64,000 nt of DNA from the human T2T-CHM13v2.0 reference genome, Homo sapiens, in contig CP086569.2 in assembly GCA_009914755.4 (NCBI GenBank), positions 30,880,001 through 30,944,000 of the forward strand. Direction: 5' to 3'. Below are positions 1 through 64,000 of this stretch, one piece after another. Each line of letters opens with the position of its first letter. Within the stretch, counting starts at the first letter, position 1. A model generated the notes under the pieces. That model was not told the origin of the DNA. It searched no databases and saw only the letters and a list, made by a program, of their open reading frames with translations. A program made the translations under genes and the position numbers.

Positions 1-55
1 ATTGATGTGAACGGAACGGAATGGAATGGAATCCAAAGGAATGGAATAGAATGGA
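1..55 (+). repeat. 3' tail of an upstream HOR unit (partial)
   Basis: Bases 1–55 match the last ~55 bp of full units, for example 3561–3613 'attgatgtgaacggaacggaatggaatggaatccaaaggaatggaatagaatggaatgg'. Confidence 0.8.
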
Positions 56-3000
56 ATGGAATCGAATGGAAAGGACTCGAATGGAAATCACTCGAATAGA
101 ATGCAATTTAATAAAATAGGATCAAATGTAATGGAATGGAATGGAAAGGAATCGAAACGAAAGGAATGGAGACAGATGGAATGGAATAGAACAGAGAGCA
201 ATGGTATAGAATGGAATGGAATCATCTGGAATGGAATTGAATGGAATGGAATAATATGAAATGGAATGGAATGGAATGGAATGGAATGCCCTTGAATTAA
301 ATGGACTGGAATGGAATGGACTCGAACAGAGTGGAATGGAAAGTGTTGAGATAGAATGGAATGGACTCCTTTGGAATGGTGTAGAATGCAATGCAATCGA
401 CTGGCAGGGAATCAAAAGGAATGTAATGGAATGGACTGGACTGGAATGCAATGGACTCGAATAGATTGGAAACGGAATGCAAAGGAATGGAATGGAATAG
501 TATGGAATGGAATGGAAAGGAATGGAGTGGAATAGACTAGAGTGGAATGGAATGGACTGGAAAGCAATGGACTGGAATGGATCTTTCTTGAATGGACTGG
601 AATCAATCGGAATGGAATGCAATGCAATCAAATGGCATGGAATAAAATAGAATGAAAGAGAATCAAATGGAATTGAATCGAATGGAATCGAATGGATTGG
701 AAAGGAATAGAATGGAATGGAATGGAATTGACTCAAATGGAATGGACTAGAATGGAATGGATTCGAATGGAAGGCAAAGGAATGGAATCTATTGGAATGG
801 ACTGTAATGGAATGGAATGGAAGGGATTGGAATGGACTCGAATGGAATGGACTGCAATAGAAAGGATTCGAATGGAATGAAAAAGAATTGAATGGAATAG
901 AACAGAATGGAATCAAATCGAATGAAATGGAATGGAATAGAAAGGAATGGAATGAAATGGAATGGAAAGGATTCGAATGGAATGCAATCGAATGGAATGG
1001 AATCGAACGGAATGGAATAAAATGGAAGAAAACTGGCAAGAAATGGAATCGAAATGAATGGAGTGTTATGGAACGGACTCAAAAGGAATTGAATGTAATA
1101 GAATGGAGTGGAGTGGACTCGAATATAATGGACTGGAATGGAATGAAATCACATGGAATGGGAACGAATGGAATGGAATGGAAAGGAATGGAATCGAATG
1201 GAAAGGAATCGAATGGAAGGGAATGAAATTGAATCAACAGGAATGGAAGGGAATAGAATAGACGGTAATGGAATGGACTCGAATAGAATGGACACGAATG
1301 CTCAAATTGAATGGACTCGAATGGAATGGAAACGAAAGGAATGTCATCGAATGGAATTGAATCGATTGGAATGAAATCGCATAGAATGGAGTGGAATCAA
1401 ATGGAATTGAATCGAAAGGAAAGGAAGCGAATGGACTGAAATGAAATGGAATGGAATTGAATGGAAAGTAATGCAATGGAATAGAATGGAACGAAATTTC
1501 ACGGAATGGAATCAAACTGAATGGAATCAAATCAATGGAATCCAATCAAATGGAATGGAGTAGATTGGATTGGATGGGATTGGAATGAAATGTACTGGAA
1601 AGGACTCGAATTTCATGAAACGGAATGGAATGAATTGGAACGGAATGGACTCGAATGGAATGGAATGTCATAGAATGGCATCAAATGGATTGGCATCAAA
1701 TGGAATGGAATAGAATGCAATGGAATGCTATGGAATGGAATGGAATGCATTGGAATGGAATGTCCTCTAATGGAATGGATTCGAGTGGAATGGAATCGAA
1801 TATAATGGAGTCGAATGAAATGGAATTGAAAGGAATGGGATCGAATACAATGGAATATACTGGAATGTAATGTAATGAACTCGAATGTAATTGACTGGAA
1901 TGGAATGTACATGAATGGAATGTAATCGAATGGAAAGTAATCCAATGGAATAGAATCTAATACAATAAAATCGACTCAGATAGAGTAGAATGTAATGGAA
2001 TGGAGTGCAGTGCAATGGAATGGAATGGAATGGAATGCAATGGAATGGAATGGAATGGAATGGAATGGAATGGAATGGAATGGAATGGGATGGGATGGAA
2101 TGGTATGGAATGGATAGTAATGGACTGGAGTGAAATGGACTGGAAAGGAATGGACTCAAATTGAAAGGGCTCGAAAGGAATGGAGTCAAATGGAATGGTC
2201 TGGAATGGAATGAACACGAAAGTAATGCAATCCAATAGAATGGAATCGAATGGCATGGAATATAAAGAAATGGAATCGAAGAGAATGGAAACAAATGGAA
2301 TGGAATTGAATGGAATGGAATTGAATGGAATGGGAACGAATGGAGTGAAATTGTATGCAGTAGAAGGGAATAGAATGGAATGCAAGCGAAAGGAAAGGAA
2401 TGGATTGGAATGGAATGGAATTCATTGGAATGGAAGAGAATGTAGTGTAATGGACAGGCCTGGAATAAAGTGGAATGCTACGGTCTCGAATGGAATAAAA
2501 ATGTATGGAATGGAATGCAATGAAACGGAATCGAATGTCATAGAATGTAATGGAATGCAAAAAAATGGAATCCAAAATCATTTACTGGAAAGGCTGGGTG
2601 TCGAAAGGAATTGACTGCAATGAAATGGAATCGAATGGAATGGAAGTGAATAGAATCGAACTAAATCGAATGGAATGGAATTGATAGGAACGGAATGGAA
2701 AGGAATGCAATGATTTGGCATGGAATGGAATCGAATGGCATCGAATGGAATGGAATGGAATGCAATGGAATGGAATGTATTACAATGTAATGAACATTAA
2801 TGGAATGTACTCGAATGGATTCGACTGGAATGGAATGTTCTGGAAGTGAATGCACTCCAATGGAATGGATTCGAAAGGAATGGAATCGAACGGAATGGAT
2901 TCTAATGGAATGGAATTAAATGGAAATGAATCAAATTGAATAGCACGGAATTGAATTGAATGGAATCGAATGCAATGGAATCTAATGAAACGGAAAGGAA

Positions 3001-3613
3001 AGAATGGAATGGAATAGAATGGGCTGGAATGGAAAGGAATCGAAACGAATGGAATGGAATCGAACTGAAGAGACTGGAATGGAATGCACTGGAATGGAAG
3101 GGAGTGTAATGGAAGGTTCTCGAAAAAAATGGAATCGAATGGAATGGAATTGAATGGAACGGAATAGAGTCGAATGGAATTGAATGGAATGGAATGGACT
3201 AGAGTGAAATGGAATCGAACCACAAGGAATGGACAGGAATAGAATGGTCTCGAATTGAATGGAATCGTATGGAATGGCATCAAACGGAATGGAATGGACA
3301 GCCACGGAATGGAATGCACTCGAATGCAATGGAGTCGAAACTAATGGACTGGAATAGAATGGACTCGACTGGTACGGACTCCAATGGAATGGAATCGAAT
3401 GGAAGGGAATCGAACGGAATGGACTCGAAGGGAAAAGACTGCAATGGAAAGGTCTCGAATGGAATGGAAATTAATGGGATGGAATGGAATCGAATGAAAT
3501 GGAGTCAAAAGGAATGGAATCGAATGGTAAGAAATTGAATGTAATGGAATCGCAAGGAATTGATGTGAACGGAACGGAATGGAATGGAATCCAAAGGAAT
3601 GGAATAGAATGGA
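56..3613 (+). repeat. HOR unit 1 (3558 bp, variant A)
   Basis: Bounded by the landmark motif at 56 and 3614. GGCC site at 2457–2460. Near-identical to unit 17 (60413–): one amino-acid difference across the 305-aa artefactual ORF 122..1039 versus 60479..61396. Confidence 0.85.
2014..2100 (+). repeat. Near-pure (GGAAT)n tract inside unit 1. It is the length-variable core of each unit.
   Basis: 2041–2088 is about 9.5 perfect TGGAA repeats, flanked by 'gcaatgg' and 'gggatgggatggaatggtatgg'. The homologous tract differs in copy number between units, for example shorter at ~5560–5625 and longer at ~28446–28497, ~44650–44715, ~55320–55375 and ~58870–58925. Confidence 0.8.
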
Positions 3614-6600
3614 ATGGAATCGAATGGAAAGGACTCGAATGGAAATCACTCGAATAGAATGCAATTTAATAAAATAGGATCAAATGTAATAGAATGGAAT
3701 GGAAAGGAATCGAAACGGAAGGAATGGAGACAGATGGAATGGAATGGAACAGAGAGCAATGGTATAGAATGGAATGGAATCATCTGGAATGGAATTGAAT
3801 GGAATGGAATAATATGAAATGGAATGGAATGGAATGGAATGGAATGCCCTTGAATTAAATGGACTGGACTCGAACAGAGTGGAATGGAAAGTGTTGAGAT
3901 AGAATGGAATGGACTCCTTTGGAATGGTGTAGTATGCAATGCAATCGACTGGCAGGGAATCAAAAGGAATGTAATGGAATGGATTGGACTGGAATGCAAA
4001 GGACTCGAATAGATTGGAAACGGAATGCAAAGGAATGGAATGGAATTGTATGGAATTCAATGGAAGGGAATGGAGTGGAATAGACTAGAGTGGAATGGAA
4101 TGGACTGGAAAGCAATGGACTGGAATGGAACTTTCTTGGATGGATTGGAATCAAACGGAATGGAATGCAATGCAATCAAATGGCATGGAATAAAATAGAA
4201 TGAAAGAGAATCAAATGGAATTGAATCGAATGGAATCGAATGGATTGGAAAGGAATAGAATGTAATGGAATGGAATTGACTCAAATGGAATGGACTAGAA
4301 TGGAATGGATTCGAATGGAAGGCAAAGGAATGGAATCTATTGGAATGGACTGTAATGGAATGGAATGGAAGGGATTGGAATGGACTCGAATGGAATGGAC
4401 TGCAATAGAAAGGATTCGAATGGAATGAAAAAGAATTGAATGGAATAGAACAGAATGGAATCAAATCGAATGAAATGGAATGGAATAGAAAGGAATGGAA
4501 TGAAATGGAATGGAAAGGATTCGAATGGAATGCAATCGAATGGAATGGAATCGAACGGAATGGAATAAAATGGAAGAAAACTGGCAAGAAATGGAATCGA
4601 AATGAATGGAGTGTTATGGAACGGAGTCAAAAGGAATTGAATGTAATAGAATGGAGTGGAGTGGACTCGAATATAATGGACTGGAATGGAATGAAATCAC
4701 ATGGAATGGGAACGAATGGAATGGAATGGAAAGGAATGGAATCGAATGGAAAGGAATCGAATGGAAGGGAATGAAATTGAATCAACACGAATGGAAGGGA
4801 ATAGAATAGACTGTAATGGAATGGACTCGAATAGAATGGACACGAATGTTCAAATTAAATGGACTCGAATGGAATGGAAACGAAAGGAATGTCATCGAAT
4901 GGAATTGAATCGATTGGAATGAAATCGCATAGAATGGAGTGGAATCAAATGGAATTGAATCGAAAGGAAAGGAAGCGAATGGACTGAAATGAAATGGAAT
5001 GGAATTGAATGGAAAGTAATGCAATGGAATAGAATGGAACGAAATTTCACGGAATGGAATCAAACTGAATGGAATCAAATCAATGGAATCAAATCAAATG
5101 GAATGGAAAGGAATTGAATGGAGTAGATGGGATTGGATGGGATTGGAATGAAATGTACTGGAAAGGACTCGAATTTCATGAAACGGAATGGAATGAATTG
5201 GAACGCAATGGACTCGAATGGAATGGAATGTCATGGGATGGCATCAAATGGAATGGAATCGAATGCAATGGAATGCTATGGAATGGAATGGAATGCATTG
5301 GAATGGAATGTCCTCTAATGGAATGGATTCGAGTGGAATGGAATTGAATATAATGGAGTCGAATGAAATGGAATTGAAAGGAATGGGATCGAATACAATG
5401 GAATATACTGGAATGTAACGTAATGAACTCGAATGTAATTGACTGGAATGGAATGTACATGAATGGAATGTAATCGAATGGAAAGTAATCCAATGGAATA
5501 GAATCTAATGCAATAAAATCGACCCAGATAGAGTAGAATGTAATGGAATGGAGTGCAGTGCAATGGAATGGAATGGAATGGAATGCAATTGAATGGAATG
5601 GAATGGAATGGAATGGGATGGAATGGTATGGAATGGATAGTAATGGACTGGAGTGAAATGGACTGGAAAGGAATGGACTCAAATTGAAAGGGCTCGAAAG
5701 GAATGGAGTCAAATGGAATGGTCTGGAATGGAATGAACACGAATGTAATGCAATCCAATAGAATGGAATCGAATGGCATGGAATATAAAGAAATGGAATC
5801 GAAGAGAATGGATACAAATGGAATGGAATTGAATGGAATGGAATTGAATGGAATGGGAACGAATGGAGTGAAATTGTATGCAGTAGAAGAGAATAGAATG
5901 GAATGCAAGCGAAAGGAAAGGAATGGATAGGAATGGAATGGAATTCATTGGAATGGAAGGGAATGTAGTGTAATGGACAGGCCTGGAATAAAGTGGAATG
6001 CTACGGTCTCGAATGGAATAAAAATGTATGGAATGGAATGCAATGAAACGGAATCGAATGTCATAGAATGTAATGGAATGCAACAAAATGGAATCCAAAA
6101 TCATTGACTGGAAAGGCTGGGTGTCGAAAGGAATTGACTCCAATGGAATGGAATCGAATGGAATGGAAGTGAATAGAATCGAACTAAATCGAATGGAATG
6201 GAATTGATAGGAACGGAATGGAAAGGAATGCAATGATTTGGCATGGAATGGAATCGAATGGCATCGAATGGAATGGAATGGAATGCAATGGAATGGAATG
6301 TATTAGAATGTAATGAACATTAATGGAATGTACTCGAATGGATTCGACTGGAATGGAATGTTCTGGAAGTGAATGGACTCCAATGGAATGGATTCGAAAG
6401 GAATGGAATCGAACGGAATGGAATCTAATGGAATGGAATTAAATGGAAATGAATCAAATTGAATAGCACGGAATTGAATTGAATGGAATCGAATGCAATG
6501 GAATCTATTGAAACGGAAAGGAAAGAATGGAATGGAATAGAATGGGCTGGAATGGAAAGGAATCGAAACGAATGGAATGGAATCGAACTGAAGAGACTGG

Positions 6601-7136
6601 AATGGAATGCACTGGAATGGAAGGGAGTGTAATGGAAGGTTCTCGAAAAAAATGGAATCGAATGGAATGGAATTGATTGGAACGGAATAGAGTCGAATGG
6701 AATTGAATGGAATGGAATGGACTAGAGTGAAATGGAATCGAACCACAAGGAATGGACAGGAATAGAATGGTCTCGAATTGAATGGAATCGTATGGAATGG
6801 CATCAAACGGAATGGAATGGACAGCCACGGAATGGAATGCACTCGAATGCAATGGAGTCGAAACTAATGGACTGGAATAGAATGGACTCGACTGGTACGG
6901 ACTCCAATGGAATGGAATCGAATGGAAGGGAATCGAACGGAATGGACTCGAAGGGAAAAGACTGCAATGGAAAGGTCTCGAATGGAATGGAAATTAATGG
7001 GATGGAATGGAATCGAATGAAATGGAGTCAAAAGGAATGGAATCGAATGGCAAGAAATCGAATGTAATGGAATCGCAAGGAATTGATGTGAACGTAACGG
7101 AATGGAATGGAATCCAAAGGAATGGAATAGAATGGA
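3614..7136 (+). repeat. HOR unit 2 (3523 bp, short variant)
   Basis: Landmarks at 3614 and 7137. GGCC at 5980–5983. It is 35 bp shorter than unit 1, and about 25 bp of that sits in the pure (GGAAT)n tract at ~5560–5625. Confidence 0.85.
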
Positions 7137-10100
7137 ATGGAATCGAATGGAAAGGACTCGAATGGAAATCACTCGAATAGAATGCAATTTAATAAAATAG
7201 GATCAAATGTAATAGAATGGAATGGAAAGGAATCGAAACGGAAGGAATGGAGACAGATGGAATGGAATGGAACAGAGAGCAATGGTATAGAATGGAATGG
7301 AATCATCTGGAATGGAATTGAATGGAATGGAATAATATGAAATGGAATGGAATGGAATGGAATGGAATGCCCTTGAATTAAATGGACTGGAATGGAATGG
7401 ACTCGAACAGAGTGGAATGGAAAGTGTTGAGATAGAATGGAATGGACTCATTTGGAATGGTGTAGTATGCAATGCAATCGACTGGCAGGGAATCAAAAGG
7501 AATGTAATCGAATGGATTGGACTGGAATGCAATGGATTCGAATAGATTGCAAACGGAATGCAAAGGAATGGAATGGAATAGTATGGAATGGAATGGAAAG
7601 GAATGGAGTGGAATAGACTAGAGTGGAATGGAATGGACTGGAAAGCAATGGACTGGAATGGAACTTTCTTGAATGGACAGGAATCAAACGGAATGGAATG
7701 CAATGCAATCAAATGGCATGGAATAAAATAGAATGAAAGAGAATCAAATGGAATTGAATGGAATGGAATGGAATGTAATGGAATGGAATGGAATGGACTA
7801 GAATGGAATGGAATGGAATGGACTAGAATGGAATGGATTCGAATGGAAGGCAAAGGAATGGATTCTATTGGAATGGACTGTAATGGAATGGAATGGAAGG
7901 GATTGGAATGGACTCGAATGGAATTGACTGCAATAGAAAGGATTCGAATGGAATGAAAAAGAATTGAATGGAATAGAACAGAATGGAATCAAATCGAATG
8001 AAATGGAATGGAATAGAAAGGAATGGAATGAAATGGAATGGAAAGGATTCGAATGGAATGCAATCGAATGGAATGGAATCGAACGGAATGGAATAAAATG
8101 GAAGAAAACTGGCAAGAAATGGAATCGAAATGAATGGAGTGTTATGGAACGGACTCAAAAGGAATTGAATGTAATAGAATGGAGTGGAGTGGACTCGAAT
8201 ATAATGGACTGGAATGGAATGAAATCACATGGAATGGGAACGAGTGGAATGGAATGGAAAGGAATGGAATCGAATGGAAAGGAATCGAATGGAAGGGAAT
8301 GAAATTGAATCAACAGGAATGGAAGGGAATAGAATAGACGGTAATGGAATGGACTCGAATAGAATGGACACGAATGCTCAAATTGAATGGACTCGAATGG
8401 AATGGAAACGAAAGGAATGTCATCGAATGGAATTGAATCGATTGGAATGAAATCGCATAGAATGGAGTGGAATCAAATGGAATTGAATCGAAAGGAAAGG
8501 AAGCGAATGGACTGAAATGAAATGGAATGGAATTGAATGGAAAGTAATGCAATGGAATAGAATGGAACGAAATTTCACGGAATGGAATCAAACTGAATGG
8601 AATCAAATCAATGGAATCCAATCAAATGGAATGGAGTAGATTGGATTGGATGGGATTGGAATGAAATGTACTGGAAAGGACTCGAATTTCATGAAACGGA
8701 ATGGAATGAATTGGAACGGAATGGACTCGAATGGAATGGAATGTCATAGAATGGTATCAAATGGAATGGCATCAAATGGAATGGAATCGAATGCAATGGA
8801 ATGCTATGGAATGGAATGGAATGCATTGGAATGGAATGTCCTCTAATGGAATGGATTCGAGTGGAATGGAATCGAATATAATGGAGTCGAATGAAATGGA
8901 ATTGAAAGGAATGGGATGGAATACAATGGAATATACTGGAATGTAATGTAATGAACTCGAATATAATTGACTGGAATGGAATGTACATGAGTGGAATGTA
9001 ATCGAATGGAAAGTAATCCAATGGAATAGAATCTAATGCAATAAAATCGACTCAGATAGAGTAGAATGTAATGGAATGGAGTGCAGTGCAATGGAATGGA
9101 ATGGAATGGAATGCAATGGAATGGAATGGAATGGAATGGAATGGAATGGAATGGAGTGGGATGGAATGGTATGGAATGGATAGTAATGGACTGGAGTGAA
9201 ATGGACTGGAAAGGAATGGACTCAAATTGAAAGGTCTCGAAAGGAATGGAGTCAAATGGAATGGTCTGGAATGGAATGAACACGAAAGTAATGCAATCCA
9301 ATAGAATGGAATCGAATGGCATGGAATATAAAGAAATGGAATCGAAGAGAATGGAAACAAATGGAATGGAATTGAATGGAATGGAATTGAATGGAATGTG
9401 AACGAATGGAGTGAAATTGTATGCAGTAGAAGAGAATAGAATGGAATGCAAGCGAAAGGAAAGGAATGGATTGGAATGGAATGGAATTCATTGGAATGGA
9501 AGGGAATGTAGTGTAATGGACAGGCCTGGAATAAAGTGGAATGCTACGGTCTCGAATGGAATAAAAATGTGTGGAATGGAATGCAATGAAACGGAATCGA
9601 ATGTCATAGAATGTAATGGAATGCAAAAAAATGGAATCCAAAATCATTGAATGCAAAGGCTGGGTGTCGAAAGGAATTGACTCCAATGGAATGGAATCGA
9701 ATGGAATGGAAGTGAATAGAATCGAACTAAATCGAATGGAATGGAATTGATAGGAACGGAATGGAAAGGAATGCAATGATTTGGCATGGAATGGAATCGA
9801 ATGGCATCGAATGGAATGGAATGGAATGCAATGGAATGGAATGTATTAGAATGTAATGAACTTTAATGGAATGTACTCGAATGGATTCGACTGGAATGGA
9901 ATGTTCTGGAAGTGAATGGACTCCAATGGAATGGATTCAAAAGGAATGGAATCGTACGGAATGGAATCCAATGGAATGGAATTAAATGGAAATGAATCAA
10001 ATTGAATAGCACGGAATTGAATTGAATGGAATTGAATGCAATGGAATCTAATGAAACGGAAAGGAAAGGAATGGAATGGAATGGAATGGACTGGAATGGA

Positions 10101-10695
10101 AAGGAATCGAAACGAATGGAATGGAATCGAACTGAAGAGACTGGAATGGAATGCACTGGAATGGAAGGGAGTGTAATGGAAGGTTCTCGAAAAAAATGGA
10201 ATCGAATGGAATGCAATTGAATGGAACGGAATAGAGTCGAATGCAATTGAATGGAATGGAATGGACTAGAGTGAAATGGAATCGAACCACAAGGAATGGA
10301 CAGGAATAGAATGGTCTCGAATTGAATGGAATCGTATGGAATGGCATCAAACGGAATGGAATGGACAGCCACGGAATGGAATGCACTCGAATGCAATGGA
10401 GTCGAAACTAATGGACTGGAATAGAATGGACTCGACTGGTACGGACTCCAATGGAATGGAATCGAATGGAAGGGAATCGAACGGAAGGGAATCGAACGGA
10501 ATGGACTCGAAGGGAAAAGACTGCAATGGAAAGGTCTCGAATGGAATGGAAATTAATGGAATGGAATGGAATCGAATGAAATAGAGTCAAAAGGAATGGA
10601 ATCGAATGGCAAGAAATCGAATGTAATGGAATCGCAAGGAATTGATGTGAACGGAACGGAATGGAATGGAATCCAAAGGAATGGAATAGAATGGA
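7137..10695 (+). repeat. HOR unit 3 (3559 bp)
   Basis: Landmarks at 7137 and 10696. GGCC at 9523–9526. Confidence 0.85.
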
Positions 10696-52800: not shown

Positions 52801-53349
52801 CTGAAGAGACTGGAATGGAATGCACTGGAATGGAAGGGAGTGTAATGGAAGGTTCTCGACAAAAATGGAATCGAATGGAATGGAATTGAATGGAACGGAA
52901 TAGAGTCGAATGGAATTGAATGGAATGGAATGGACTAGAGTGAAATGGAATCGAACCACAAGGAATGGACAGGAATAGAATGGTCTCGAATTGAATGGAA
53001 TCGTATGGAATGGCATCAAACGGAATGGAATGGACAGCCACGGAATGGAATGCACTCGAATGCAATGGAGTCGAAACTAATGGACTGGAATAGAATGGAC
53101 TCGACTGGTACGGACTCCAATGGAATGGAATCGAATGGAAGGGAATCGAACAGAATGGACTCGAAGGGAAAAGACTGCAATGGAAAGGTCTCGAATGGAA
53201 TGGAAATTAATGGAATGGAATGGAATCGAATGAAATGGAGTCAAAAGGAATGGAATCGAATGGCAAGAAATCGAATGTAATGGAATCGCAAGGAATTGAT
53301 GTGAACGGAACGGAATGGAATGGAATCCAAAGGAATGGAATAGAATGGA
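49801..53349 (+). repeat. HOR unit 14 (3549 bp, variant A')
   Basis: Landmarks at 49801 and 53350. GGCC at 52192–52195. Confidence 0.85.
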
Positions 53350-56300
53350 ATGGAATCGAATGGAAAGGACTCGAATGGAAATCACTCGAATAGAATGCAA
53401 TTTAATAAAATAGGATCAAATGTAATGGAATGGAATGGAAAGGAATCGAAACGAAAGGAATGGAGACAGATGGAATGGAATGGAACAGAGAGCAATGGTA
53501 TAGAATGGAATGGAATCATCTGGAATGGAATTGAATGGAATGGAATAATATGAAATGGAATGGAATGGAATGCCCTTGAATTAAATGGACTGGACTCGAA
53601 TAGAGTGGAATGGAAAGTTTTGAGATAGAATGGAATGGACCCCTTTGGAATGGTCTAGTATGCAATGCAATCGACTGGCAGGGAATCAAAAGGAATGTAA
53701 TCGAATGGATTGGACTGGAAAGCAATGGACTCGAATAGATTGGAAACGGAATGCAAAGGAATGGAATGGAATAGTATGGAATGGAATGGAAGGGAATGGA
53801 GTGGAATAGACTAGAGTGGAATGGAATGGACTGGAAAGCAATGGACTGGAATCGAACATTCTTGAATGGACTGGAATCAAACGGAATGGAATGCAATGCA
53901 ATCAAATGGCATGGAATAAAATAGAATGAAAGAGAATCAAATGGAATTGAATCGAATGGAATCGAATGGATTGGAAAGGAATAGAATGGAATGGAATGGA
54001 ATTGACTCAAATGGAATGGACTAGAATGGAATGGATTCGAATGGAAGGCAAAGGAATGGAATCTATTGGAATGGACTGTAATGGAATGGAATGGAAGGGA
54101 TTGGAATGGACTCGAATGGAATGGACTGCAATAGAAAGGATTCGAATGGAATGAAAAAGAATTGAATGGAATAGAACAGAATGGAATCAAATCGAATGAA
54201 ATGGAATGGAATAGAAAGGAATGGAATGAAATGGAATGGAAAGGATTCGAATGGAATGCAATCGAATGGAATGGAATCGAACGGAATGGAATAAAATGGA
54301 AGAAAACAGGCAAGAAATGGAATCGAAAGGAATGGAGTGTTATGGAACGGACTCAAAAGGAATTGAATGTAATAGAATGGAGTGGAGTGGACTCGAATAT
54401 AATGGACTGGAATGGAATGAAATCACATGGAATGGGAACGAATGGAATGGAATGGAAAGGAATGGAATCGAATGGAAAGGAATCGAATGGAAGGGAATGA
54501 AATTGAATCAACAGGAATGGAAGGGAATAGAATAGACGGTAATGGAATGGACTCGAATAGAATGGACACGAATGCTCAAATTGAATGGACTCGAATGGAA
54601 TGGAAACGAAAGGAATGTCATCGAATGGAATTGAATCGATTGGAATGAAATCGCATAGAATGGAGTGGAATCAAATGGAATTGAATCGAAAGGAAAGGAA
54701 GCGAATGGACTGAAATGAAATGGAATGGAATTGAATGGAAAGTAATGCAATGGAATAGAAGGGAACGAAATTTCACGGAATGGAATCAAACTGAATGGAA
54801 TCAAATCAATGGAATCAAATCAAATGGAATGGAAAGGAATTGAATGGAGTAGATTGGATTGCATGGGATTGGAATGAAATGTACTGGAAAGGACTCGAAT
54901 TTCATGAAACGGAATGGAATGAATTGGAACGGAATGGACTCGAATGGAATGGAATGTCATGGAATGGCATCAAATGGAATGGCATCAAATGGAATGGAAT
55001 CGAATGCAATGGAATGCTATGGAATGGAATTGAATGCATTGGAATGGAATGTCCTCTAATGGAATGGATTCGAGTGGAATGGAATCGAATATAATGGAGT
55101 CGAATGAAATGGAATTGAAAGGAATGGGATCGAATACAATGGAATATACTGGAATGTAATGTAATGAACACGAATGTAACTGACTGGAATGGAATGTACA
55201 TGAATGGAATGTAATCGAAAGGAAAGTAATCCAATGGAATAGAATCTAATGCAATAAAATCGACTCAGATAGAGTAGAATGTAATGGAATGGAGTGCAGT
55301 GCAATGCAATGGAATGGAATGGAATGCAATGGAATGGAATGGAATGGAATGGAATGGAATGGAATGGAATGGAATGGGATGGAATGGTATGGAATGGATA
55401 GTAATGGACTGGAGTGAAATGGACTGGAAAGGAATGGACTCAAATTGAAAGGGCTCGAAAGGAATGGAGTCAAATGGAATGGTCTGGAATGGAATGAACA
55501 CGAATGTAATGCAATCCAATAGAATGGAATCGAATGGCATGGAATATAAAGAAATGGAATCGAAGAGAATGGAAACAAATGGAATGGAATTGAATGGAAT
55601 GGGAACGAATGGAGTGAAATTGTATGCAGTAGAAGGGAATAGAATGGAATGCAAGCGAAAGGAAAGGAATGGATTGGAATGGAATGGAATTCATTGGAAT
55701 GGAAGGGAATGTAGTGTAATGGACAGGCCTGGAATAAAGTGGAATGCTACGGTCTCGAATGGAATAAAAATGTATGGAATGGAATGCAATGAAACGGAAT
55801 CGAATGTCATAGAATGTAATGGAATGCAAAAAAATGGAATCCAAAATCATTGACTGGAAAGGCTGGGTGTCGAAAGGAATTGACTCCAATGGAATGGAAT
55901 CGAATGGAGTGGAAGTGAATAGAATCGAACTAAATCGAATGGAATGGAATTGATAGGAACGGAATGGAAAGGAATGCAATGATTTGGCACGGAATGGAAT
56001 CGAATGGCATCGAATGGAATGGAATGGAATGCAATGGAATGGAACGTATTAGAATGTAATGAACTTTAATGGAATGTACTCGAATGGATTCGACTGGAAT
56101 GGAATGTTCTGGAAGTGAATGGACTCCAATGGAATGGATTCAAAAGGAATGGAATCGTACGGAATGGAATCTAATGGAATGGAATTAAATGGAAATGAAT
56201 CAAATTGAATAGCATGGAATTGAATTGAATGGAATCGAATGCAATGGAATCTAATGAAACGGAAAGGAAAGGAATGGAATGGAATGGAATGGGCTGGAAT

Positions 56301-56883
56301 GGAAAGGAATCGAAACGAATGGAATGGAATCGAACTGAAGAGACTGGAATGGAATGCACTGGAATGGAAGGGAGTGTAATGGAAGGTTCTCGAAAAAAAT
56401 GGAATCGAATGGAATGGAATTGAATGGAACGGAATAGAGTCGAATGGAATTGAATGGAATGGAATGGACTAGAGTGAAATGGAATCGAACCACAAGGAAT
56501 GGACAGGAATAGAATGGTCTCGAATTGAATGGAATCGTATGGAATGGCATCAAACGGAATGGAATGGACAGCCACGGAATGGAATGCACTCGAATGCAAT
56601 GGAGTCGAAACTAATGGACTGGAATAGAATGGACTCGACTGGTACGGACTCCAATGGAATGGAATCGAATGGAAGGGAATCGAACGGAATGGACTCGAAG
56701 GGAAAAGACTGCAATGGAAAGGTCTCGAATGGAATGGAAATAAATGGAATGGAATGGAATCGAATGAAATGGAGTCAAAAGGAATGGAATCGAATGGCAA
56801 GAAATCGAATGTAATGGAATCGCAAGGAATTGATGTGAACGGAACGGAATGGAATGGAATCCAAAGGAATGGAATAGAATGGA
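53350..56883 (+). repeat. HOR unit 15 (3534 bp, variant B)
   Basis: Landmarks at 53350 and 56884. GGCC at 55726–55729. Matches unit 8 (offset 26880). Confidence 0.85.
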
Positions 56884-59800
56884 ATGGAATCGAATGGAAA
56901 GGACTCGAATGGAAATCACTCGAATAGAATGCAATTTAATAAAATAGGACCAAATGTAATGGAATGGAATGGAAAGGAATCGAAACGAAAGGAATGGAGA
57001 CAGATGGAATGGAATGGAACAGAGAGCAATGGTATAGAATGGAATGGAATCATCTGGAATGGAATTGAATGGAATGGAATAATATGAAATGGAATGGAAT
57101 GGAATGGAATGGAATGCCCTTGAATTAAATGGACTGGAATGGAATGGACTCGAACAGAGTGGAATGGAAAGTGTTGAGATAGAATGGAATGGACTCGTTA
57201 GGAATGGTCTAGTAGGCAATGCAATCGACTGGCAGGGAATCAAAAGGAATGTAATCGAATGGATTGGACAGGAATGCAATGGACTCGAATAGATTGCAAA
57301 CGGAATGCAAAGGAATGGAATGGAATAGTATGGAATGGAATGGAAAGGAATGGAGTAGAATAGACTAGAGTGGAATGGAATGGACTGGAAAGAAATGGAC
57401 TGGAATGGAACTTTCTTGAATGGACTGGAATCAAACGGAATGGAATGCAATGCAATCAAATGGCATGGAATAAAATAGAATGAAAGAGAATCAAATGGAA
57501 TTGAATCGAATGGAATCGAATGGATTGGAAAGGAATAGAATGGAATGGAATGGAATGGACTAGAATGGAATGGATTCGAATGGAAGGCAAAGGAATGGAA
57601 TCTATTGGAATGGACTGTAATGGAATGGAATGGAAGGGATTGGAATGGACTCGAATGGAATGGACTGCAATAGAAAGGATTCGAATGGAATGAAAAAGAA
57701 TTGAATGGAATAGAACAGAATGGAATCAAATCGAATGAAATGGAATGGAATAGAAAGGAATGGAATGAAATGGAATGGAAAGGATTCGAATGGAATGCAA
57801 TCGAATGGAATGGAATCGAACGGAATGGAATAAAATGGAAGAAAACTGGCAAGAAATGGAATCGAAATGAATGGAGTGTTATGGAACGGACTCAAAAGGA
57901 ATTGAATGTAATAGAATGGAGTGGAGTGGACTCGAATATAATGGACTGGAATGGAATGAAATCACATGGAATGGGAACGAATGGAATGGAATGGAAAGGA
58001 ATGGAATCGAATGGAAAGGAATCGAATGGAAGGGAATGAAATTGAATCAACAGGAATGGAAGGGAATAGAATAGACGGTAATGGAATGGACTCGAATAGA
58101 ATGGACACGAATGCTCAAATTGAATGGACTCGAATGGAATGGAAACGAAAGGAATGTCATCGAATGGAATTGAATCGATTGGAATGAAATCGCATAGAAT
58201 GGAGTGGAATCAAATGGAATTGAATCGAAAGCAAAGGAAGCGAATGGACTGAAATGAAATGGAATGGAATTGAATGGAAAGTAATGCAATGGAATAGAAT
58301 GGAACGAAATTTCACGGAATGGAATCAAACTGAATGGAATCAAATCAATGGAATCAAATCAAATGGAATGGAAAGGAATTGAATGGAGTAGATTGGATTG
58401 GATGGGATTGGAATGAAATGTACTGGAAAGGACTCGAATTTCATGAAACGGAATGGAATGAATTGGAACGGAATGGACTCGAATGGAATGGAATGTCATG
58501 GAATGGCATCAAATGGAATGGCATCAAATGGAATGGAATCGAATGCAATGGAATGCTATGGAATGGAATGGAATGCATTGGAATGGAATGTCCTCTAATG
58601 GAATGGATTCGAGTGGAATGGAATCGAATATAATGGAGTCGAATGAAATGGAATTGAAAGGAATGGGATCGAATACAATGGAATATACTGGAATGTAATG
58701 TAATGAACTCGAATGTAATTGACTGGAATGGAATGTACATGAATGGAATGTAATCGAATGGAAAGTAATCCAATGGAATAGAATCTAATGCAATAAAATC
58801 GACTCAGATAGAGTAGAATGTAATGGAATGGAGTGCAGTGCAATGGAATGGAATGGAATGGAATGCAATTGAATGGAATGGAATGGAATGGAATGGAATG
58901 GAATGGAATGGAATGGAATGGGATGGAATGGTATGGAATGGATAGTAATGGACTGGAGTGAAATGGACTGGAAAGGAATGGACTCAAATTGAAAGGGCTC
59001 GAAAGGAATGGAGTCAAATGGAATGGTCTGGAATGGAATGAACACGAATGTAATGCAATCCAATAGAATGGAATCGAATGGCATGGAATATAAAGAAATG
59101 GAATCGGAGAGAATGGAAACAAATGGAATGGAATTGAATGGAATGGGAACGAATGGAGTGAAATTGTATGCAGTAGAAGGGAATAGAATGGAATGCAAGC
59201 GAAAGGAAAGGAATGGATTGGAATGGAATGGAATTCATTGGAATGGAAGGGAATGTAGTGTAATGGACAGGCCTGGAATAAAGTGGAATGCTACGGTCTC
59301 GAATGGAATAAAAATGTATGGAATGGAATGCAATGAAACGGAATCGAATGTCATAGAATGTAATGGAATGCAAAAAAATGGAATCCAAAATCATTGACTG
59401 GAAAGGCTGGGTGTCGAAAGGAATTGACTCCAATGGAATGGAATCGAATGGAATGGAAGTGAATAGAATCGAACTAAATCGAATGGAATTTAATTGATAG
59501 GAACGGAATGGAAAGGAATGCAATGATTTGGCATGGAATGGAATCGAATGACATCGAATGGAATGGAATGGAATGCAATGGAATGGAACGTATTAGAATG
59601 TAATGAACTTTAATGGAATGTACTTGAATGGATTCGACTGGAATGGAATGTTCTGGAAGTGAATGGACTCCAATGGAATGGATTCAAAAGGAATGGAATC
59701 GTACGGAATGGAATCTAATGGAATGGAATTAAATGGAAATGAATCAAATTGAATAGCACGGAATTGAATTGAATGGAATGGAATGCAATGGAATCTAATG

Positions 59801-60412
59801 AAACGGAAAGGAAAGGAATGGAATGGAATGGAATGGGCTGGAATGGAAAGGAATCGAAACGAATGGAATGGAATCGAACTGAAGAGACTGGAATGGAATG
59901 CACTGGAATGGAAGGGAGTGTAATGGAAGGTTCTCGAAAAAAATGAAATGGAATGGAATAGAATTGAATGGAACGGAATAGAGTCGAATGGAATTGAATG
60001 GAATGGAATGGACTAGAGTGAAATGGAATCGAACCACAAGGAATGGACAGGAATAGAATGGTCTCGAATTGAATGGAATCGTATGGAATGGCATCAAACG
60101 GAATGGAATGGACAGCCACTGAATGGAATGCACTCGAATGCAATGGAGTCGAAACTAATGGACTGGAATAGAATGGACTCGACTGGTACGGACTCCAATG
60201 GAATGGAATCGAACGGAATGGACTCGAAGGGAAAAGACTGCAATGGAAAGGTCTCGAATGGAATGGAAATTAATGGAATGGAATGGAATCGAATGAAATG
60301 GAGTCAAAAGGAATGGAATCGAATGGCAAGAAATCGAATGTAATGGAATCGCAAGGAATTGATGTGAACAGAACGGAATGGAATGGAATCCAAAGGAATG
60401 GAATAGAATGGA
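56884..60412 (+). repeat. HOR unit 16 (3529 bp, variant C)
   Basis: Landmarks at 56884 and 60413. GGCC at 59270–59273. Matches unit 9 (offset 26880). Confidence 0.85.
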
Positions 60413-63400
60413 ATGGAATCGAATGGAAAGGACTCGAATGGAAATCACTCGAATAGAATGCAATTTAATAAAATAGGATCAAATGTAATGGAATGGAATG
60501 GAAAGGAATTGAAACGAAAGGAATGGAGACAGATGGAATGGAATGGAACAGAGAGCAATGGTATAGAATGGAATGGAATCATCTGGAATGGAATTGAATG
60601 GAATGGAATAATATGAAATGGAATGGAATGGAATGGAATGGAATGCCCTTGAATTAAATGGACTGGAATGGAATGGACTCGAACAGAGTGGAATGGAAAG
60701 TGTTGAGATAGAATGGAATGGACTCCTTTGGAATGGTGTAGTATGCAATGCAATCGACTGGCAGGGAATCAAAAGGAATGTAATGGAATGGACTGGACTG
60801 GAATGCAATGGACTCGAATAGATTGGAAACGGAATGCAAAGGAATGGAATGGAATAGTATGGAATGGAATGGAAAGGAATGGAGTGGAATAGACTAGAGT
60901 GGAATGGAATGGACTGGAAAGCAATGGACTGGAATGGATCTTTCTTGAATGGACTGGAATCAAACGGAATGGAATGCAATGCAATCAAATGGCATGGAAT
61001 AAAATAGAATGAAAGAGAATCAAATGGAATTGAATCGAATGGAATCGAATGGATTGGAAAGGAATAGAATGGAATGGAATGGAATTGACTCAAATGGAAT
61101 GGACTAGAATGGAATGGATTCGAATGGAAGGCAAAGGAATGGAATCTATTGGAATGGACTGTAATGGAATGGAATGGAAGGGATTGGAATGGACTCGAAT
61201 GGAATGGACTGCAATAGAAAGGATTCGAATGGAATGAAAAAGAATTGAATGGAATAGAACAGAATGGAATCAAATCGAATGAAATGGAATGGAATAGAAA
61301 GGAATGGAATGAAATGGAATGGAAAGGATTCGAATGGAATGCAATCGAATGGAATGGAATCGAACGGAATGGAATAAAATGGAAGAAAACTGGCAAGAAA
61401 TGGAATCGAAATGAATGGAGTGTTATGGAATGGACTCAAAAGGAATTGAATGTAATAGATTGGAGTGGAGTGGACTCGAATATAATGGACTGGAATGGAA
61501 TGAAATCACATGGAATGGGAACGAATGGAATGGAATGGAAAGGAATGGAATCGAATGGAAAGGAATCGAATGGAAGGGAATGAAATTGAATCAACAGGAA
61601 TGGAAGGGAATAGAATAGACGGCAATGGAATGGACTCGAATAGAATGGACACGAATGCTCAAATTGAATGGACTCGAATGGAATGGAAACGAAAGGAATG
61701 TCATCGAATGGAATTGAATCGATTGGAATGAAATCGCATAGAATGGAGTGGAATCAAATGGAATTGAATCGAAAGGAAAGGAAGCGAATGGACTGAAATG
61801 AAATGGAATGGAATTGAATGGAAATTAATGCAATGGAATAGAATGGAACGAAATTTCACGGAATGGAATCAAACTGAATGGAATCAAATCAATGGAATCT
61901 AATCAAATGGAATGGAAAGGAATTGAATGGAGTAGATTGGATTGGATGGGATTGGAATGAAATGTACTGGAAAGGACTCGAATTTCATGAAACGGAATGG
62001 AATGAATTGGAACGGAATGGACTCGAATGGAATGGAATGTCATGAAATGGCATCAAATGGAATGGCATCAAATGGAATGGAATCGAATGCAATGGAATGG
62101 TATGGAATGGAATGGAATGCATTGGAATGGAATGTCCTCTAATGGAATGGATTCGAGTGGAATGGAATCGAATATAATGGAGTCGAATGAAATGGAATTG
62201 AAAGGAATGGGATCGAATACAATGGAATATACTGGAATGTAATGTAATGAACTCGAATGTAATTGACTGGAATGGAATGTACACGAATGGAATGTAATCG
62301 AATGGAAAGTAATCCAATGGAATAGAATCTAATGCAATAAAACCGACTCAGATAGAGTAGAATGTAATGGAATGGAGTGCAGTGCAATGGAATGGAATTG
62401 AATTGAATGCAATGGAATGGAATCGAATGGAATGGAATGGAATGGAATGGAATGGAATGGAATGGGATGGAATGGTATGGAATGGATAGTAATGGACTGG
62501 AGTGAAATGGACTGGAAAGGAATGGACTCAAATTGAAAGGGCTCGAAAGGAATGGAGTCAAATGGAATGGTCTGGAATGGAATGAACACGAATGTAATGC
62601 AATCCAATAGAATGGAATCGAATGGCATGAAATATAAAGAAATGGAATCGAAGAGAATGGAAACAAATGGAATGGAATTGAATGGAATGGAATTGAATGG
62701 AATGGGAACGAATGGAGTGAAATTGTATGCAGTAGAAGGGAATAGAATGGAATGCAAGCGAAAGGAAAGGAATGGATTGGAATGGAATGGAATTCATTGG
62801 AATGGAAGGGAATGTAGTGTAATGGACAGGCCTGGAATAAAGTGGAATGCTACGGTCTCGAATGGAATAAAAATGTATGGAATGGAATGCAATGAAACGG
62901 AATCGAATGTCATAGAATGTAATGGAATGCAAAAAAATGGAATCCAAAATCATTGACTGGAAAGGCTGGGTGTCGAAAGGAATTGACTCCAATGGAATGG
63001 AATCGAATGGAATGGAAGTGAATAGAATCGAACTAAATCGAATGGAATGGAATTGATAGGAACGGAATGGAAAGGAATGCAATGATTTGGCATGGAATGC
63101 AATCGAATGGCATCGAATGGAATGGAATGGAATGCAATGGAATGGAATGTATTAGAATGTAATGAACTTTAAAGGAATGTACTCGAATGGATTCGACTGG
63201 AATGGAATGTTCTGGAAGTGAATGGACTCCAATGGAATGGATTCAAAAGGAATGGAATCGTACGGAATGGAATCTAATGGAATGGAATTAAATGGAAATG
63301 AATCAAATTGAATAGCACGGAATTGAATTGAATGGAATGGAATGCAATGGAATCTAATGAAACGGAAAGGAAAGGAATGGAATGGAATGGAATGGACTGG

Positions 63401-63558
63401 AATGGAAAGGAATCGAAACGAATGGAATGGAATCGAACTGAAGAGACTGGAATGGAATGCACTGGAATGGAAGGGAGTGTAATGGAAGGTTCTCGAAAAA
63501 AATGGAATCGAATGGAATGGAATTGAATGGAACGGAATAGAGTCGAATGGAATTGAAT
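60413..63558 (+). repeat. HOR unit 17 (variant A), truncated at offset ~3140 by a deletion that removes the unit boundary
   Basis: Landmark at 60413. GGCC at 62829–62832. Collinear with unit 1 until 'ggaatagagtcgaatggaattgaatggaatggaat' (~63530–63566). It then continues as 'aatatgaaatggaatggaatggaatggaatgcccttgaattaaatgg', which is offset ~190 of a unit. Confidence 0.75.
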
Positions 63559-63570
63559 GGAATGGAATAA
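63545..63570. other. Junction of a ~0.6 kb deletion spanning a unit boundary (offset ~3140 joined to offset ~190 of the next unit)
   Basis: The breakpoint lies within the 20-mer 'ggaattgaatggaatggaat', which occurs at both parental positions (about 3178 and about 227 of unit 1). Confidence 0.65.
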
Positions 63571-64000
63571 TATGAAATGGAATGGAATGGAATGGAATGG
63601 AATGCCCTTGAATTAAATGGACTGGAATGGAATGGACTCGAACAGAGTGGAATGGAAAGTGTTGAGATAGAATGGAATGGACTCCTTTGGAATGGTGTAG
63701 TATGCAATGCAATCGACTGGCAGGGAATCAAAAGGAATGTAATGGAATGGACTGGACTGGAATGCAATGGACTCGAATAGATTGGAAACGGAATGCAAAG
63801 GAATGGAATGGAATAGTATGGAATGGAATGGAAAGGAATGGAGTGGAATAGACTAGAGTGGAATGGAATGGACTGGAAAGCAATGGACTGGAATGGATCT
63901 TTCTTGAATGGACTGGAATCAAACGGAATGGAATGCAATGCAATCAAATGGCATGGAATAAAATAGAATGAAAGAGAATCAAATGGAATTGAATCGAATG
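63559..64000 (+). repeat. HOR unit 18 (partial; starts at unit offset ~190 and runs to the window end)
   Basis: 63570–64000 is collinear with 246–690 of unit 1. The landmark motif that should precede it is absent. Confidence 0.7.

What the first reader, a model, noticed from the sequence alone, without database searches (positions are those of the whole stretch)
1..64000. Whole window is HSat3 (GGAAT)n satellite in a ~3.56 kb HOR, consistent with human DYZ1 (Yq12), not a gene-bearing region
Seen in the sequence: pentamer GGAAT with derivatives, and about 18 units of 3.52–3.57 kb sharing long landmark strings. Established knowledge: HSat3 is based on ATTCC. DYZ1 on the human Y long arm is a 3.4–3.56 kb pentamer-based HOR released by HaeIII, which has one site per unit. 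Both properties hold here. Other HSat3 HORs (chr9, chr15, acrocentric short arms) have different unit lengths, so chromosome Y is the best guess but is not proven from sequence alone.
Basis: partly seen in the sequence, partly recalled or inferred. Interest (0 to 1): 0.5.

Follow-up and report, generated by a model that had tools for sequence, protein, structure and literature searches.

The report
Human Y-chromosome DYZ1 satellite array

Summary
All 64 kb are GGAAT-derived satellite on one strand (4,263 GGAAT against 3 ATTCC), arranged in a higher-order repeat of about 3.56 kb. The 13 canonical units are 98.1-99.7% identical to one another.

The interpretation (human DYZ1 / HSat3A6, Yq12) is supported by published markers:
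- Of the 14 subfamily-marker 24-mers in Altemose 2014, only the HSat3A6 one is present (29 exact copies).
- All 8 DYZ1 primers from PMC2923088 match about once per unit. The five short amplicons have exactly the published size as their commonest value (266, 242, 773, 275, 329 bp), and the five long ones span it.
- The Yq12 ChIP primers from PMC7889540 match once per unit.
- GC content (38.7%), CpG density (1 per 36 bp) and consensus length (3,564 bp) equal the published DYZ1 values.
- Contaminant contigs in "bacterial" assemblies and human-gut metagenomes are up to 99.9% identical to the window consensus.

- Only 13 units are canonical. One carries a deletion (3,114 bp), two are 5.56-kb partial-duplication hybrids with a second HaeIII site, and the last unit ends in an out-of-register junction.
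- Unit length alone does not exclude chr15, whose HSat3A5 repeat is 1.8/3.6 kb. The marker 24-mers and the absence of KpnI sites exclude it.
- Chromosome placement could not be tested directly, because no human assembly is held.

Verdict: already known, low interest.

The parts
1..64000 (+). Uninterrupted DYZ1 (HSat3A6) satellite array. The GGAAT-rich strand is the + strand, which is the reverse complement of the published DYZ1 (TTCCA) orientation.
1..3558 (+). canonical unit u01 (3,558 bp)
   Evidence: 99.24% to local consensus
3559..7081 (+). canonical unit u02 (3,523 bp)
7082..10640 (+). canonical unit u03 (3,559 bp)
10641..14174 (+). canonical unit u04 (3,534 bp)
14175..17288 (+). deletion-variant unit u05 (3,114 bp), missing about 400-445 bp near unit positions 527-925; junction near 14650-14690
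   Evidence: in-silico amplicons 2928, 1650 and 333 bp
17289..22855 (+). hybrid long unit u06 (5,567 bp): unit positions 1-2198 followed by 158-3559. The junction at 19445-19471 lies in about 27 bp of shared sequence. An extra HaeIII site sits at 19840.
22856..26414 (+). canonical unit u07 (3,559 bp), used as the reference unit; 99.7% identical to u13
26415..29948 (+). canonical unit u08 (3,534 bp); 99.5% identical to u15 with the same indel pattern
29949..33497 (+). canonical unit u09 (3,549 bp); 99.1% identical to u16
33498..37060 (+). canonical unit u10 (3,563 bp)
37061..42617 (+). hybrid long unit u11 (5,557 bp) with the same junction as u06 (39217-39243) and an extra HaeIII site at 39612; 99.5% identical to u06
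42618..46186 (+). canonical unit u12 (3,569 bp)
46187..49745 (+). canonical unit u13 (3,559 bp)
49746..53294 (+). canonical unit u14 (3,549 bp)
53295..56828 (+). canonical unit u15 (3,534 bp)
56829..60357 (+). canonical unit u16 (3,529 bp)
60358..63568 (+). unit u17, unit positions 1-3196, ending in an out-of-register junction (3196 -> 229) at 63545-63568
63545..64000 (+). tail that is 456/456 identical to 60586-61041, the start of a 2,959-bp repeat of u17
2451..2617 (+). most diverged, DYZ1-diagnostic segment of the unit (example copy in u01). It holds the StuI/HaeIII site at 2456-2461 and the binding sites of the published Yq12 ChIP primers. It recurs 17 times.
25688..25700 (+). perfect trimeric heat-shock element GAATGTTCTGGAA (example copy). 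It is one of three conserved HSE positions per unit, at about 580, 2833 and 3113; the window holds 44 in all.
   Evidence: HSF1 binding to Yq12 SATIII reported in PMC7889540

Best explanation
The window is an internal piece of one DYZ1 block of the human Y-chromosome long-arm heterochromatin (Yq12). DYZ1 is the Y-specific HSat3 subfamily A6, a non-coding array of roughly 3.56-kb higher-order units, each built from about 712 degenerate GGAAT pentamers.

How it is maintained:
- Shown in the sequence: pentamer-scale slippage, seen as unit-length differences that are mostly multiples of 5 bp.
- Shown in the sequence: out-of-register exchange between units. Three kinds of hybrid or deleted unit are present, and the two junctions I inspected closely lie in about 25 bp of shared sequence.
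- Shown in the sequence: duplication of multi-unit blocks.
- Inferred: these rearrangements arise by unequal sister-chromatid or intrachromatid exchange and gene conversion, as proposed for Yq12 in the T2T-Y and Y-pangenome papers.

What it does, beyond being constitutive heterochromatin, is taken from the literature and was not tested here:
- It offers dense transcription-factor sites. The window has 2,916 TEAD-core GGAATG motifs and three perfect heat-shock elements per unit.
- On heat shock, HSF1 binds Yq12 SATIII DNA. GGAAU-rich SATIII RNA accumulates there and nucleates nuclear stress bodies.
For: - Composition and periodicity.
- Subfamily marker: only the HSat3A6-specific 24-mer of Altemose 2014 Table 1 occurs (29 exact copies, 2 positions per unit). 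The 13 other subfamily markers have 0 exact matches (markers).
- Colinearity with the published DYZ1 clone: all 8 primers of PMC2923088 match about once per unit in the expected orientation. Commonest amplicons are 266, 242, 773, 275 and 329 bp, against published 266, 242, 773, 275 and 329. The long amplicons are 1529-1569, 2060-2100, 2041-2071, 1597-1627 and 3337-3383 bp, against published 1564, 2095, 2056, 1612 and 3378.
- Yq12 ChIP primers designed on GenBank X06228.1: the reverse primer is exact in 16 of 17 units; the forward primer has 1 mismatch in all 17.
- The consensus of the 13 canonical units is 3,564 bp, the published DYZ1 clone length.
- GC is 38.7% and CpG density 1 per 35.9 bp, against published 38% and 1 per 35 bp.
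- Units are 98.9-99.7% identical to the local consensus, against '>98%' in T2T-Y.
- Independent copies: a scan with a 23-mer found 6 contigs in 'bacterial' assemblies and 33 metagenome contigs, one named 'human gut metagenome'. They match the window consensus at up to 99.92% over 3,604 bp. Collapsed contigs imply units of 3,569 bp, the modal HaeIII fragment reported by Hallast et al.. T2T-Y documents exactly this Y-HSat3 contamination of bacterial databases.
- No genes: no Rfam family, no tRNA, and ORFs with only sub-threshold low-complexity Pfam hits.
- Rearrangement junctions and block duplication.
- HSE count: 44 against 1.1 in shuffles. HSF1 and Yq12: PMC7889540. TEAD and HSat3: 10.1101/2024.10.22.616524.
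Against: - No human or ape genome assembly is held, so the decisive alignment to chrY was not done. Y linkage rests on the published specificity of the markers.
- Altemose 2014 Text S1 mentions a model-predicted minor (~94 kb) HSat3A6 signal on chr7.
- The commonest HaeIII fragments here are 3,559 and 3,549 bp (three each), with 3,569 bp occurring once. Hallast et al. report 3,569 bp as the mode in 6 of 7 genomes.
- One primer (DYZ1D) has at least 2 mismatches in every copy.
- The span between the Penin primers is 167 bp, not the stated 154 bp.
- No DYZ2 block is seen in the window. That is expected, since published DYZ1 blocks run from 50 kb to 3.6 Mb.
- The functional statements (HSF1, TEAD, stress bodies) come from the literature and were not tested.
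Confidence: 0.96

Rival explanations
1. The window is an autosomal HSat3 array of similar period, in particular chr15 D15Z1 (HSat3A5, 1.8/3.6-kb KpnI repeat), or 9q12 (HSat3B5), or an acrocentric short-arm array.
For: It is GGAAT-based like all HSat3. HSat3A5 on chr15 is listed with a 1800/3600-bp unit, so the period alone does not exclude it.
Against: The marker 24-mers of HSat3A5, HSat3B5, HSat3A1-A4 and HSat3B1-B4 are all absent at 0 mismatches, and the HSat3A5 marker is also absent at 1 mismatch. The window has no KpnI site. No 1.8-kb half-period stands out in the autocorrelation, whose only long lags among the top 30 cluster at about 3.53-3.57 kb. All eight DYZ1 primers and both Yq12 primers match with the right spacing.
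Confidence: 0.01
2. The window is HSat3A6-like sequence elsewhere in the human genome. Candidates are the 2.7-kb DYZ1/DYZ18 hybrid array at the Yq11/Yq12 border, DYZ17 near the Y centromere, or the putative small chr7 HSat3A6 array.
For: Hallast et al. describe a 2.7-kb repeat of which 77% is 97% identical to DYZ1. Altemose Text S1 reports a predicted ~94-kb chr7 signal.
Against: The period is 3.56 kb, not 2.7 kb. The unit contains all eight primer sites spread along the full DYZ1 clone, with no foreign (DYZ18-derived) segment. Contaminant contigs that carry the modal 3,569-bp unit length published for Yq12 match the window consensus at 99.7-99.9%, not about 97%. By size alone, more than 20 Mb of DYZ1 against at most 0.1 Mb on chr7 gives prior odds above 200:1.
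Confidence: 0.02
3. The window is a DYZ1-like satellite from a non-human great ape Y chromosome, for example gorilla, whose Yq is also heterochromatic.
For: (AATGG)n is male-biased and present on the Y in chimpanzee, bonobo, gorilla and orangutan.
Against: The markers used derive from human DNA (HuRef reads; human DYZ1 clones) and match exactly in most units. Contaminant copies in bacterial isolate assemblies and a human-gut metagenome are 98.6-99.9% identical over whole units, which points to human laboratory or host DNA. The ape sex-chromosome paper reports lineage-specific satellite expansions, not a shared DYZ1 repeat.
Confidence: 0.01

Closest known systems
DYZ1 (HSat3 subfamily A6) of human Yq12; reference clone GenBank X06228.1, Nakahori et al. 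1986, 3,564 bp
   Same: - Pentamer basis and 3.56-kb higher-order unit.
- Consensus length of 3,564 bp.
- One HaeIII/StuI site per canonical unit.
- HSat3A6 marker 24-mer present.
- Eight clone-spanning primers give the published amplicon sizes.
- Yq12 ChIP primer sites present once per unit.
- GC 38.7% and one CpG per 36 bp.
- Units more than 98.9% identical to the local consensus.

   Different: Nothing categorical. Local structural variants are present: a 3,114-bp unit, two 5.56-kb units and a 2,959-bp junction repeat. The modal HaeIII fragment here is 3,549/3,559 bp, not 3,569 bp. Primer DYZ1D and the Penin forward primer carry fixed mismatches of at least 2 and of 1 respectively.
D15Z1 (HSat3A5) of chromosome 15
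   Same: It is a GGAAT-derived HSat3 of the A clade, with a published repeat of 1.8/3.6 kb.
   Different: The HSat3A5 marker 24-mer is absent even at 1 mismatch. The window has no KpnI sites and no 1.8-kb sub-period.
2.7-kb DYZ1/DYZ18 hybrid repeat at the Yq11-Yq12 border (Hallast et al. 2023)
   Same: It is derived from DYZ1 sequence, with 77% of the unit about 97% identical to DYZ1.
   Different: The window has a 3.56-kb period, full-length DYZ1 units and no DYZ18-derived segment.

Membership tests
HSat3 (human satellite 3) | Array derived from the pentamer GGAAT/ATTCC | tested here: met
   4,263 GGAAT on one strand. The consensus parses into 712 pentamers: 243 exact and 274 with one substitution. 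TRF reports a 15-bp unit, GAATGGAATGGAATC.
HSat3A6 / DYZ1 | Presence of HSat3A6-specific 24-mers and absence of those of other subfamilies (Altemose 2014) | tested here: met
   TCGTTTCGATTCCTTTCCATTCCA occurs 29 times exactly; the 13 other subfamily markers have 0 exact matches. Only the top marker of each subfamily could be tested, because the held copy of the full list is cut off within subfamily 2A1.
HSat3A6 / DYZ1 | Higher-order unit of about 3.56 kb (published clone 3,564 bp) | tested here: met
   13 units of 3,523-3,569 bp; consensus 3,564 bp. Four further units are rearranged variants.
HSat3A6 / DYZ1 | HaeIII releases the unit (one GGCC per unit) | tested here: met
   17 GGCC sites at the same unit position, and 14 of the 18 fragments are 3,523-3,569 bp. 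The two long units each have a second site.
HSat3A6 / DYZ1 | Colinearity with the cloned DYZ1 unit along its whole length | tested here: met
   In-silico PCR with the 8 primers and 10 combinations of PMC2923088 reproduces the published amplicon sizes.
HSat3A6 / DYZ1 | Published Yq12-specific primer sites (PMC7889540) | tested here: met
   The reverse primer is exact in 16 of 17 units. The forward primer has 1 mismatch in all 17.
HSat3A6 / DYZ1 | Base composition: about 38% GC, about 1 CpG per 35 bp | tested here: met
   38.7% GC and 1 CpG per 35.9 bp, compared with the figures quoted.
HSat3A6 / DYZ1 | Male-specific location on Yq12 | not testable with these tools
   No human assembly or sex-stratified read set is held. 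The location is inferred from the published specificity of the markers.
HSat3A6 / DYZ1 | DYZ1 blocks alternate with DYZ2 (HSat1B, 2.4 kb, AT-rich with an Alu fragment) | tested here: inconclusive
   The window contains no AT-rich or Alu-containing segment; GC is flat at 0.38-0.40. At 64 kb, the window fits inside a single DYZ1 block, which published figures put at 50 kb to 3.6 Mb.
HSat3A5 / D15Z1 (chr15) | HSat3A5-specific 24-mer; KpnI 1.8/3.6-kb unit | tested here: not met
   0 matches at up to 1 mismatch; 0 KpnI sites.
HSat3B5 (9q12) | HSat3B5-specific 24-mer | tested here: not met
   0 matches at up to 1 mismatch.
Protein-coding or structured-RNA genes | ORF with a domain above the curated threshold, conserved between units; an Rfam family; a tRNA | tested here: not met
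   89 ORFs of at least 130 aa, nearly all with TTG starts on the stop-poor ATTCC strand, and with lengths that differ between units. Pfam gives only Extensin_1 at 27-41 bits (cut-off 105) and Pentapeptide_4 below its cut-off of 38. Rfam found 0 families and the tRNA scan found 0.

The most novel reading that the evidence does not exclude
The local architecture might mark a sub-array or Y-haplogroup-specific supra-repeat that is currently being amplified. That architecture is a 5.56-kb hybrid unit present twice with an identical junction and a private extra HaeIII site, embedded in a duplicated block of roughly 20-27 kb, plus a perfectly identical 2,959-bp junction repeat at the window end. If so, it would give a datable record of unequal exchange inside Yq12. 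Equally, the perfect 456-bp repeat could flag an assembly error.
Probability: 0.3. Interest if true: 0.12.

Novelty: already known. Interest (0 to 1): 0.05.

Why it matters
It matters little for discovery. DYZ1 was described in 1976-1986 and has been fully resolved in T2T-Y and in dozens of later Y assemblies.

The practical value is in annotation. The window should be masked as HSat3A6/DYZ1 satellite. Its many stop-free ORFs must not be called as genes. The same sequence is a recurrent human-male contaminant in "bacterial" genome assemblies and metagenomes; six GTDB species-representative assemblies carry it.

The variant units illustrate the unequal-exchange dynamics already proposed for Yq12.

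Tried and rejected
1. Literature search for the classic 154-bp Y-repeat primers that I recalled from memory (TCCACTTTATTCCAGGCCTGTCC and TTGAATGGAATGGGAACGAATGG). Neither string was found in the library. A keyword search on DYZ1, primer and "154 bp" led only to an irrelevant paper. The primers do match the window: 17 exact sites and 12 exact sites, with a 154-bp span. I use this only as a memory-based lead, not as evidence.
2. The original Nakahori 1986 paper (PMC311781) is not held, so the reference sequence itself could not be aligned.
3. The full list of 2,696 HSat3A6-specific 24-mers (Altemose Dataset S2) is held only up to subfamily 2A1.
4. The T2T-Y text contains no probe or primer sequences.
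5. The padlock-probe paper PMC12561931 gives no DYZ1 target sequence in its main text.
6. Gene content was checked and rejected: Rfam, tRNA and Pfam searches were all negative or sub-threshold.
7. The expensive protein-homology searches and structure prediction were not used, because nothing here is coding. The phage, plasmid and E. coli collections were not searched, because they cannot inform a human satellite.
Full report
**1. What is in the sequence**

The window is one uninterrupted satellite. The + strand carries 4,263 GGAAT and only 3 ATTCC. Exact GGAAT covers 33% of the bases, and identity at lag 5 is 0.64 (0.69 at lag 15). GC (0.38-0.40) and GC skew (+0.54 to +0.61) are flat from end to end. 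TRF calls a single array with the 15-bp unit GAATGGAATGGAATC at 68% matches.

A higher-order period sits on top of this. The landmark ATTGATGTGAACGGAACGG recurs 17 times. BLAST of one unit (22856-26414) tiles the whole window at 95.6-100% identity.

Thirteen landmark-to-landmark intervals are canonical, at 3,523-3,569 bp. Their length differences are mostly multiples of 5 bp. Their pairwise substitution identity is 98.1-99.7% (mean 98.7%), and their consensus is 3,564 bp long. Each unit is 98.9-99.7% identical to that consensus. The consensus parses into 712 pentamers:
- 243 exact GGAAT
- 274 with one substitution
- 143 with two
- 40 with three
- 6 with four
- 6 with an indel

Divergence from GGAAT is spread evenly along the unit.

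**2.

Four units are not canonical.
- u05 (14175-17288) is 3,114 bp. It lacks about 400-445 bp near unit positions 527-925.
- u06 (17289-22855, 5,567 bp) and u11 (37061-42617, 5,557 bp) are hybrids. Unit positions 1-2198 are followed by 158-3559. The junction is identical in both and lies in about 27 bp of near-identical sequence shared by the two positions. The two units are 99.5% identical to each other.
- u17 runs to unit position 3196 and then jumps back to position 229 at 63545-63568. The remaining 456 bp of the window are 456/456 identical to 60586-61041.

HaeIII (GGCC) cuts 19 times. Seventeen sites are at the same unit position, inside a StuI site. The two long units each have an extra site created by GGACT->GGCCT.

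So "about 18 units of 3.52-3.57 kb, one HaeIII site each" is right in substance but idealised.

**3. Identification**

No human assembly is held, so I tested published DYZ1/HSat3A6 markers against the window.

(a) Altemose et al. [quoted passage not shown] Only the HSat3A6 marker occurs: 29 exact copies at two positions per unit. The other 13 have no exact match, and the chr15 (HSat3A5) and chr9 (HSat3B5) markers have none even at one mismatch. The same paper equates HSat3A6 with DYZ1 and with the 3,564-bp clone of Nakahori et al. 1986.

- All eight match about once per unit. Forward primers match the window's - strand and reverse primers the + strand.
- Seven of the eight are exact in most units.
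- The commonest in-silico products are 266, 242, 773, 275 and 329 bp, exactly as published.
- The long products bracket the published values:

| Published (bp) | Observed range (bp) |
|---|---|
| 1564 | 1529-1569 |
| 2095 | 2060-2100 |
| 2056 | 2041-2071 |
| 1612 | 1597-1627 |
| 3378 | 3337-3383 |

- The outlying products come from the rearranged units described in section 2.

(c) The Yq12 ChIP primers of Penin et al. 2021 (PMC7889540) were designed on X06228.1. Each matches 17 times, once per HaeIII-bearing unit. The reverse primer is exact in 16 copies, and the forward primer has one mismatch in all 17.

(d) Bulk properties agree. GC is 38.7% and CpG density is 1 per 35.9 bp, against 38% and 1 per 35 bp for DYZ1 in Hallast et al.. 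Units more than 98% identical to consensus are what T2T-Y reports.

(e) Independent copies exist in public data.
- A 23-mer from the HaeIII region retrieved six contigs filed under bacterial genomes (Actinomadura cremea JCM 3308, Streptomyces spp., a Polyangiaceae MAG and others). It also retrieved 33 metagenome contigs, one explicitly from a human gut metagenome.
- They match the window consensus at up to 99.92% over 3,604 bp and 99.82% over 5,669 bp. The human-gut contig matches at 98.6% over 3,700 bp.
- Contigs with identical ends imply collapsed units of 3,569, 3,574, 3,544 and 2 x 3,569 bp. A unit of 3,569 bp is the modal HaeIII fragment reported for DYZ1.
- T2T-Y describes exactly this contamination of bacterial databases by Y-chromosome HSat3.
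- This makes a human origin far more likely than an ape origin, although (AATGG)n also occurs on ape Y chromosomes.

**4. Rivals**

- chr15 D15Z1 (HSat3A5). It is excluded by the marker 24-mer and by the absence of KpnI sites or a 1.8-kb sub-period.
- The 2.7-kb DYZ1/DYZ18 hybrid array. It is excluded by the period and by full-length colinearity with DYZ1.
- A predicted ~94-kb HSat3A6 signal on chr7. It cannot be excluded by sequence, but it is more than 200-fold smaller than DYZ1, which exceeds 20 Mb.

**5. No genes**

Rfam (gathering thresholds) and tRNA scans are empty. The 89 ORFs of at least 130 aa lie almost entirely on the stop-poor ATTCC strand. They start with TTG and differ in length from unit to unit. 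The longest give only sub-threshold low-complexity Pfam hits: Extensin_1 at 27-41 bits against a cut-off of 105, and Pentapeptide_4 below its cut-off of 38.

**6. How it works**

Shown by the sequence:
- The array changes by pentamer-scale slippage, seen as indels in multiples of 5 bp.
- It changes by out-of-register exchange at short shared stretches, which produced the three junction types.
- It changes by duplication of multi-unit blocks. u06~u11 (99.5%), u07~u13 (99.7%), u08~u15 (99.5%, identical indel pattern) and u09~u16 (99.1%) stand out against a background of 98.1-99.0%. In the second copy, u12 and u14 have no counterpart among these pairs.

This is the unequal-exchange and gene-conversion behaviour described for Yq12.

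Inferred from the literature, not tested here:
- The array is constitutive heterochromatin.
- It presents 2,916 TEAD-core GGAATG motifs, all on the + strand (TEAD-HSat3 binding in 10.1101/2024.10.22.616524).
- It presents three perfect heat-shock elements per unit at conserved positions. The window has 44, against 1.1 in shuffles. Because these are copies of three sites, the independent count is three per 3.56 kb.
- Penin et al. showed that HSF1 binds Yq12 SATIII DNA on heat shock and that nuclear stress bodies recruiting SRSF1 form there.

**7. Verdict**

The object is already known, so interest is low. The only direct test that I could not run is alignment to a Y-chromosome assembly.

Noticed in passing
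window 17289-22855 and 37061-42617: Two 5.56-kb hybrid units (unit positions 1-2198 followed by 158-3559). They share an identical junction and a private extra HaeIII site (GGACT->GGCCT at 19840 and 39612), and are 99.5% identical to each other. Virtual HaeIII digestion gives 3,654 + 1,913/1,903 bp fragments in place of one ~3.56-kb fragment.
   Followed up: yes
window 14175-17288: A 3,114-bp unit with an internal deletion of about 400-445 bp near unit positions 527-925. The junction lies in pentamer sequence shared by both sides.
   Followed up: partly
window 63545-64000 vs 60586-61041: 456 bp of perfect identity follow an out-of-register junction (unit 3196 -> 229). About 6 differences would be expected at the typical 98.7% unit identity. 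This is either a very recent 2,959-bp duplication or an assembly artefact, and the window ends before it can be judged.
   Followed up: partly
window 17289-60357: Supra-unit duplication. Unit pairs u06~u11, u07~u13, u08~u15 and u09~u16 are 99.1-99.7% identical against a 98.1-99.0% background. This implies a duplicated block of about 5 units, with u12 and u14 lacking a counterpart among the pairs.
   Followed up: partly
L001-L006 (genome contigs): DYZ1 units are filed inside 'bacterial' species-representative assemblies: Actinomadura cremea JCM 3308 BMRF01000076.1, Streptosporangium violaceochromogenes JCM 3281, Streptomyces kurssanovii JCM 4388, Streptomyces sp. NPDC050549, Senimuribacter sp. 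DSM 106208 and a Polyangiaceae MAG. They are 98.8-99.9% identical to the window consensus and represent human male DNA contamination.
   Followed up: yes
L008, L015, L025, L028, L030 (metagenome contigs): Several contigs match the DYZ1 consensus at only about 96.6-97.1%, some over only part of their length. They could be diverged peripheral DYZ1 units or the 2.7-kb DYZ1/DYZ18 hybrid repeat, which is reported to be 97% identical to DYZ1. L035 has 49% GC and looks chimeric.
   Followed up: no
window, every unit (e.g. 619-640 and 2451-2474): Two published primers differ from every copy in this window. DYZ1D (PMC2923088) has at least 2 mismatches in all copies. The Penin Yq12 forward primer has 1 mismatch (…AAAGTGAA against …AAAGTGGA) in all 17 copies. 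The Penin primer pair spans 167 bp here, not the stated 154 bp.
   Followed up: partly
window, whole: Identity at lag 15 (0.687) exceeds that at lag 5 (0.644) and lag 10 (0.641). TRF also picks a 15-bp unit, GAATGGAATGGAATC. So roughly every third pentamer tends to be a CGAAT/TCGAA-type variant, giving a 15-bp sub-period within the unit.
   Followed up: no
window - strand, e.g. 29731-30972, 22977-23894: Long stop-free ORFs of up to 413 aa on the ATTCC strand translate to pentapeptide-periodic sequence. They give weak Extensin_1 and Pentapeptide_4 hits, a ready source of spurious protein predictions if the sequence is run through a prokaryotic gene caller.
   Followed up: yes
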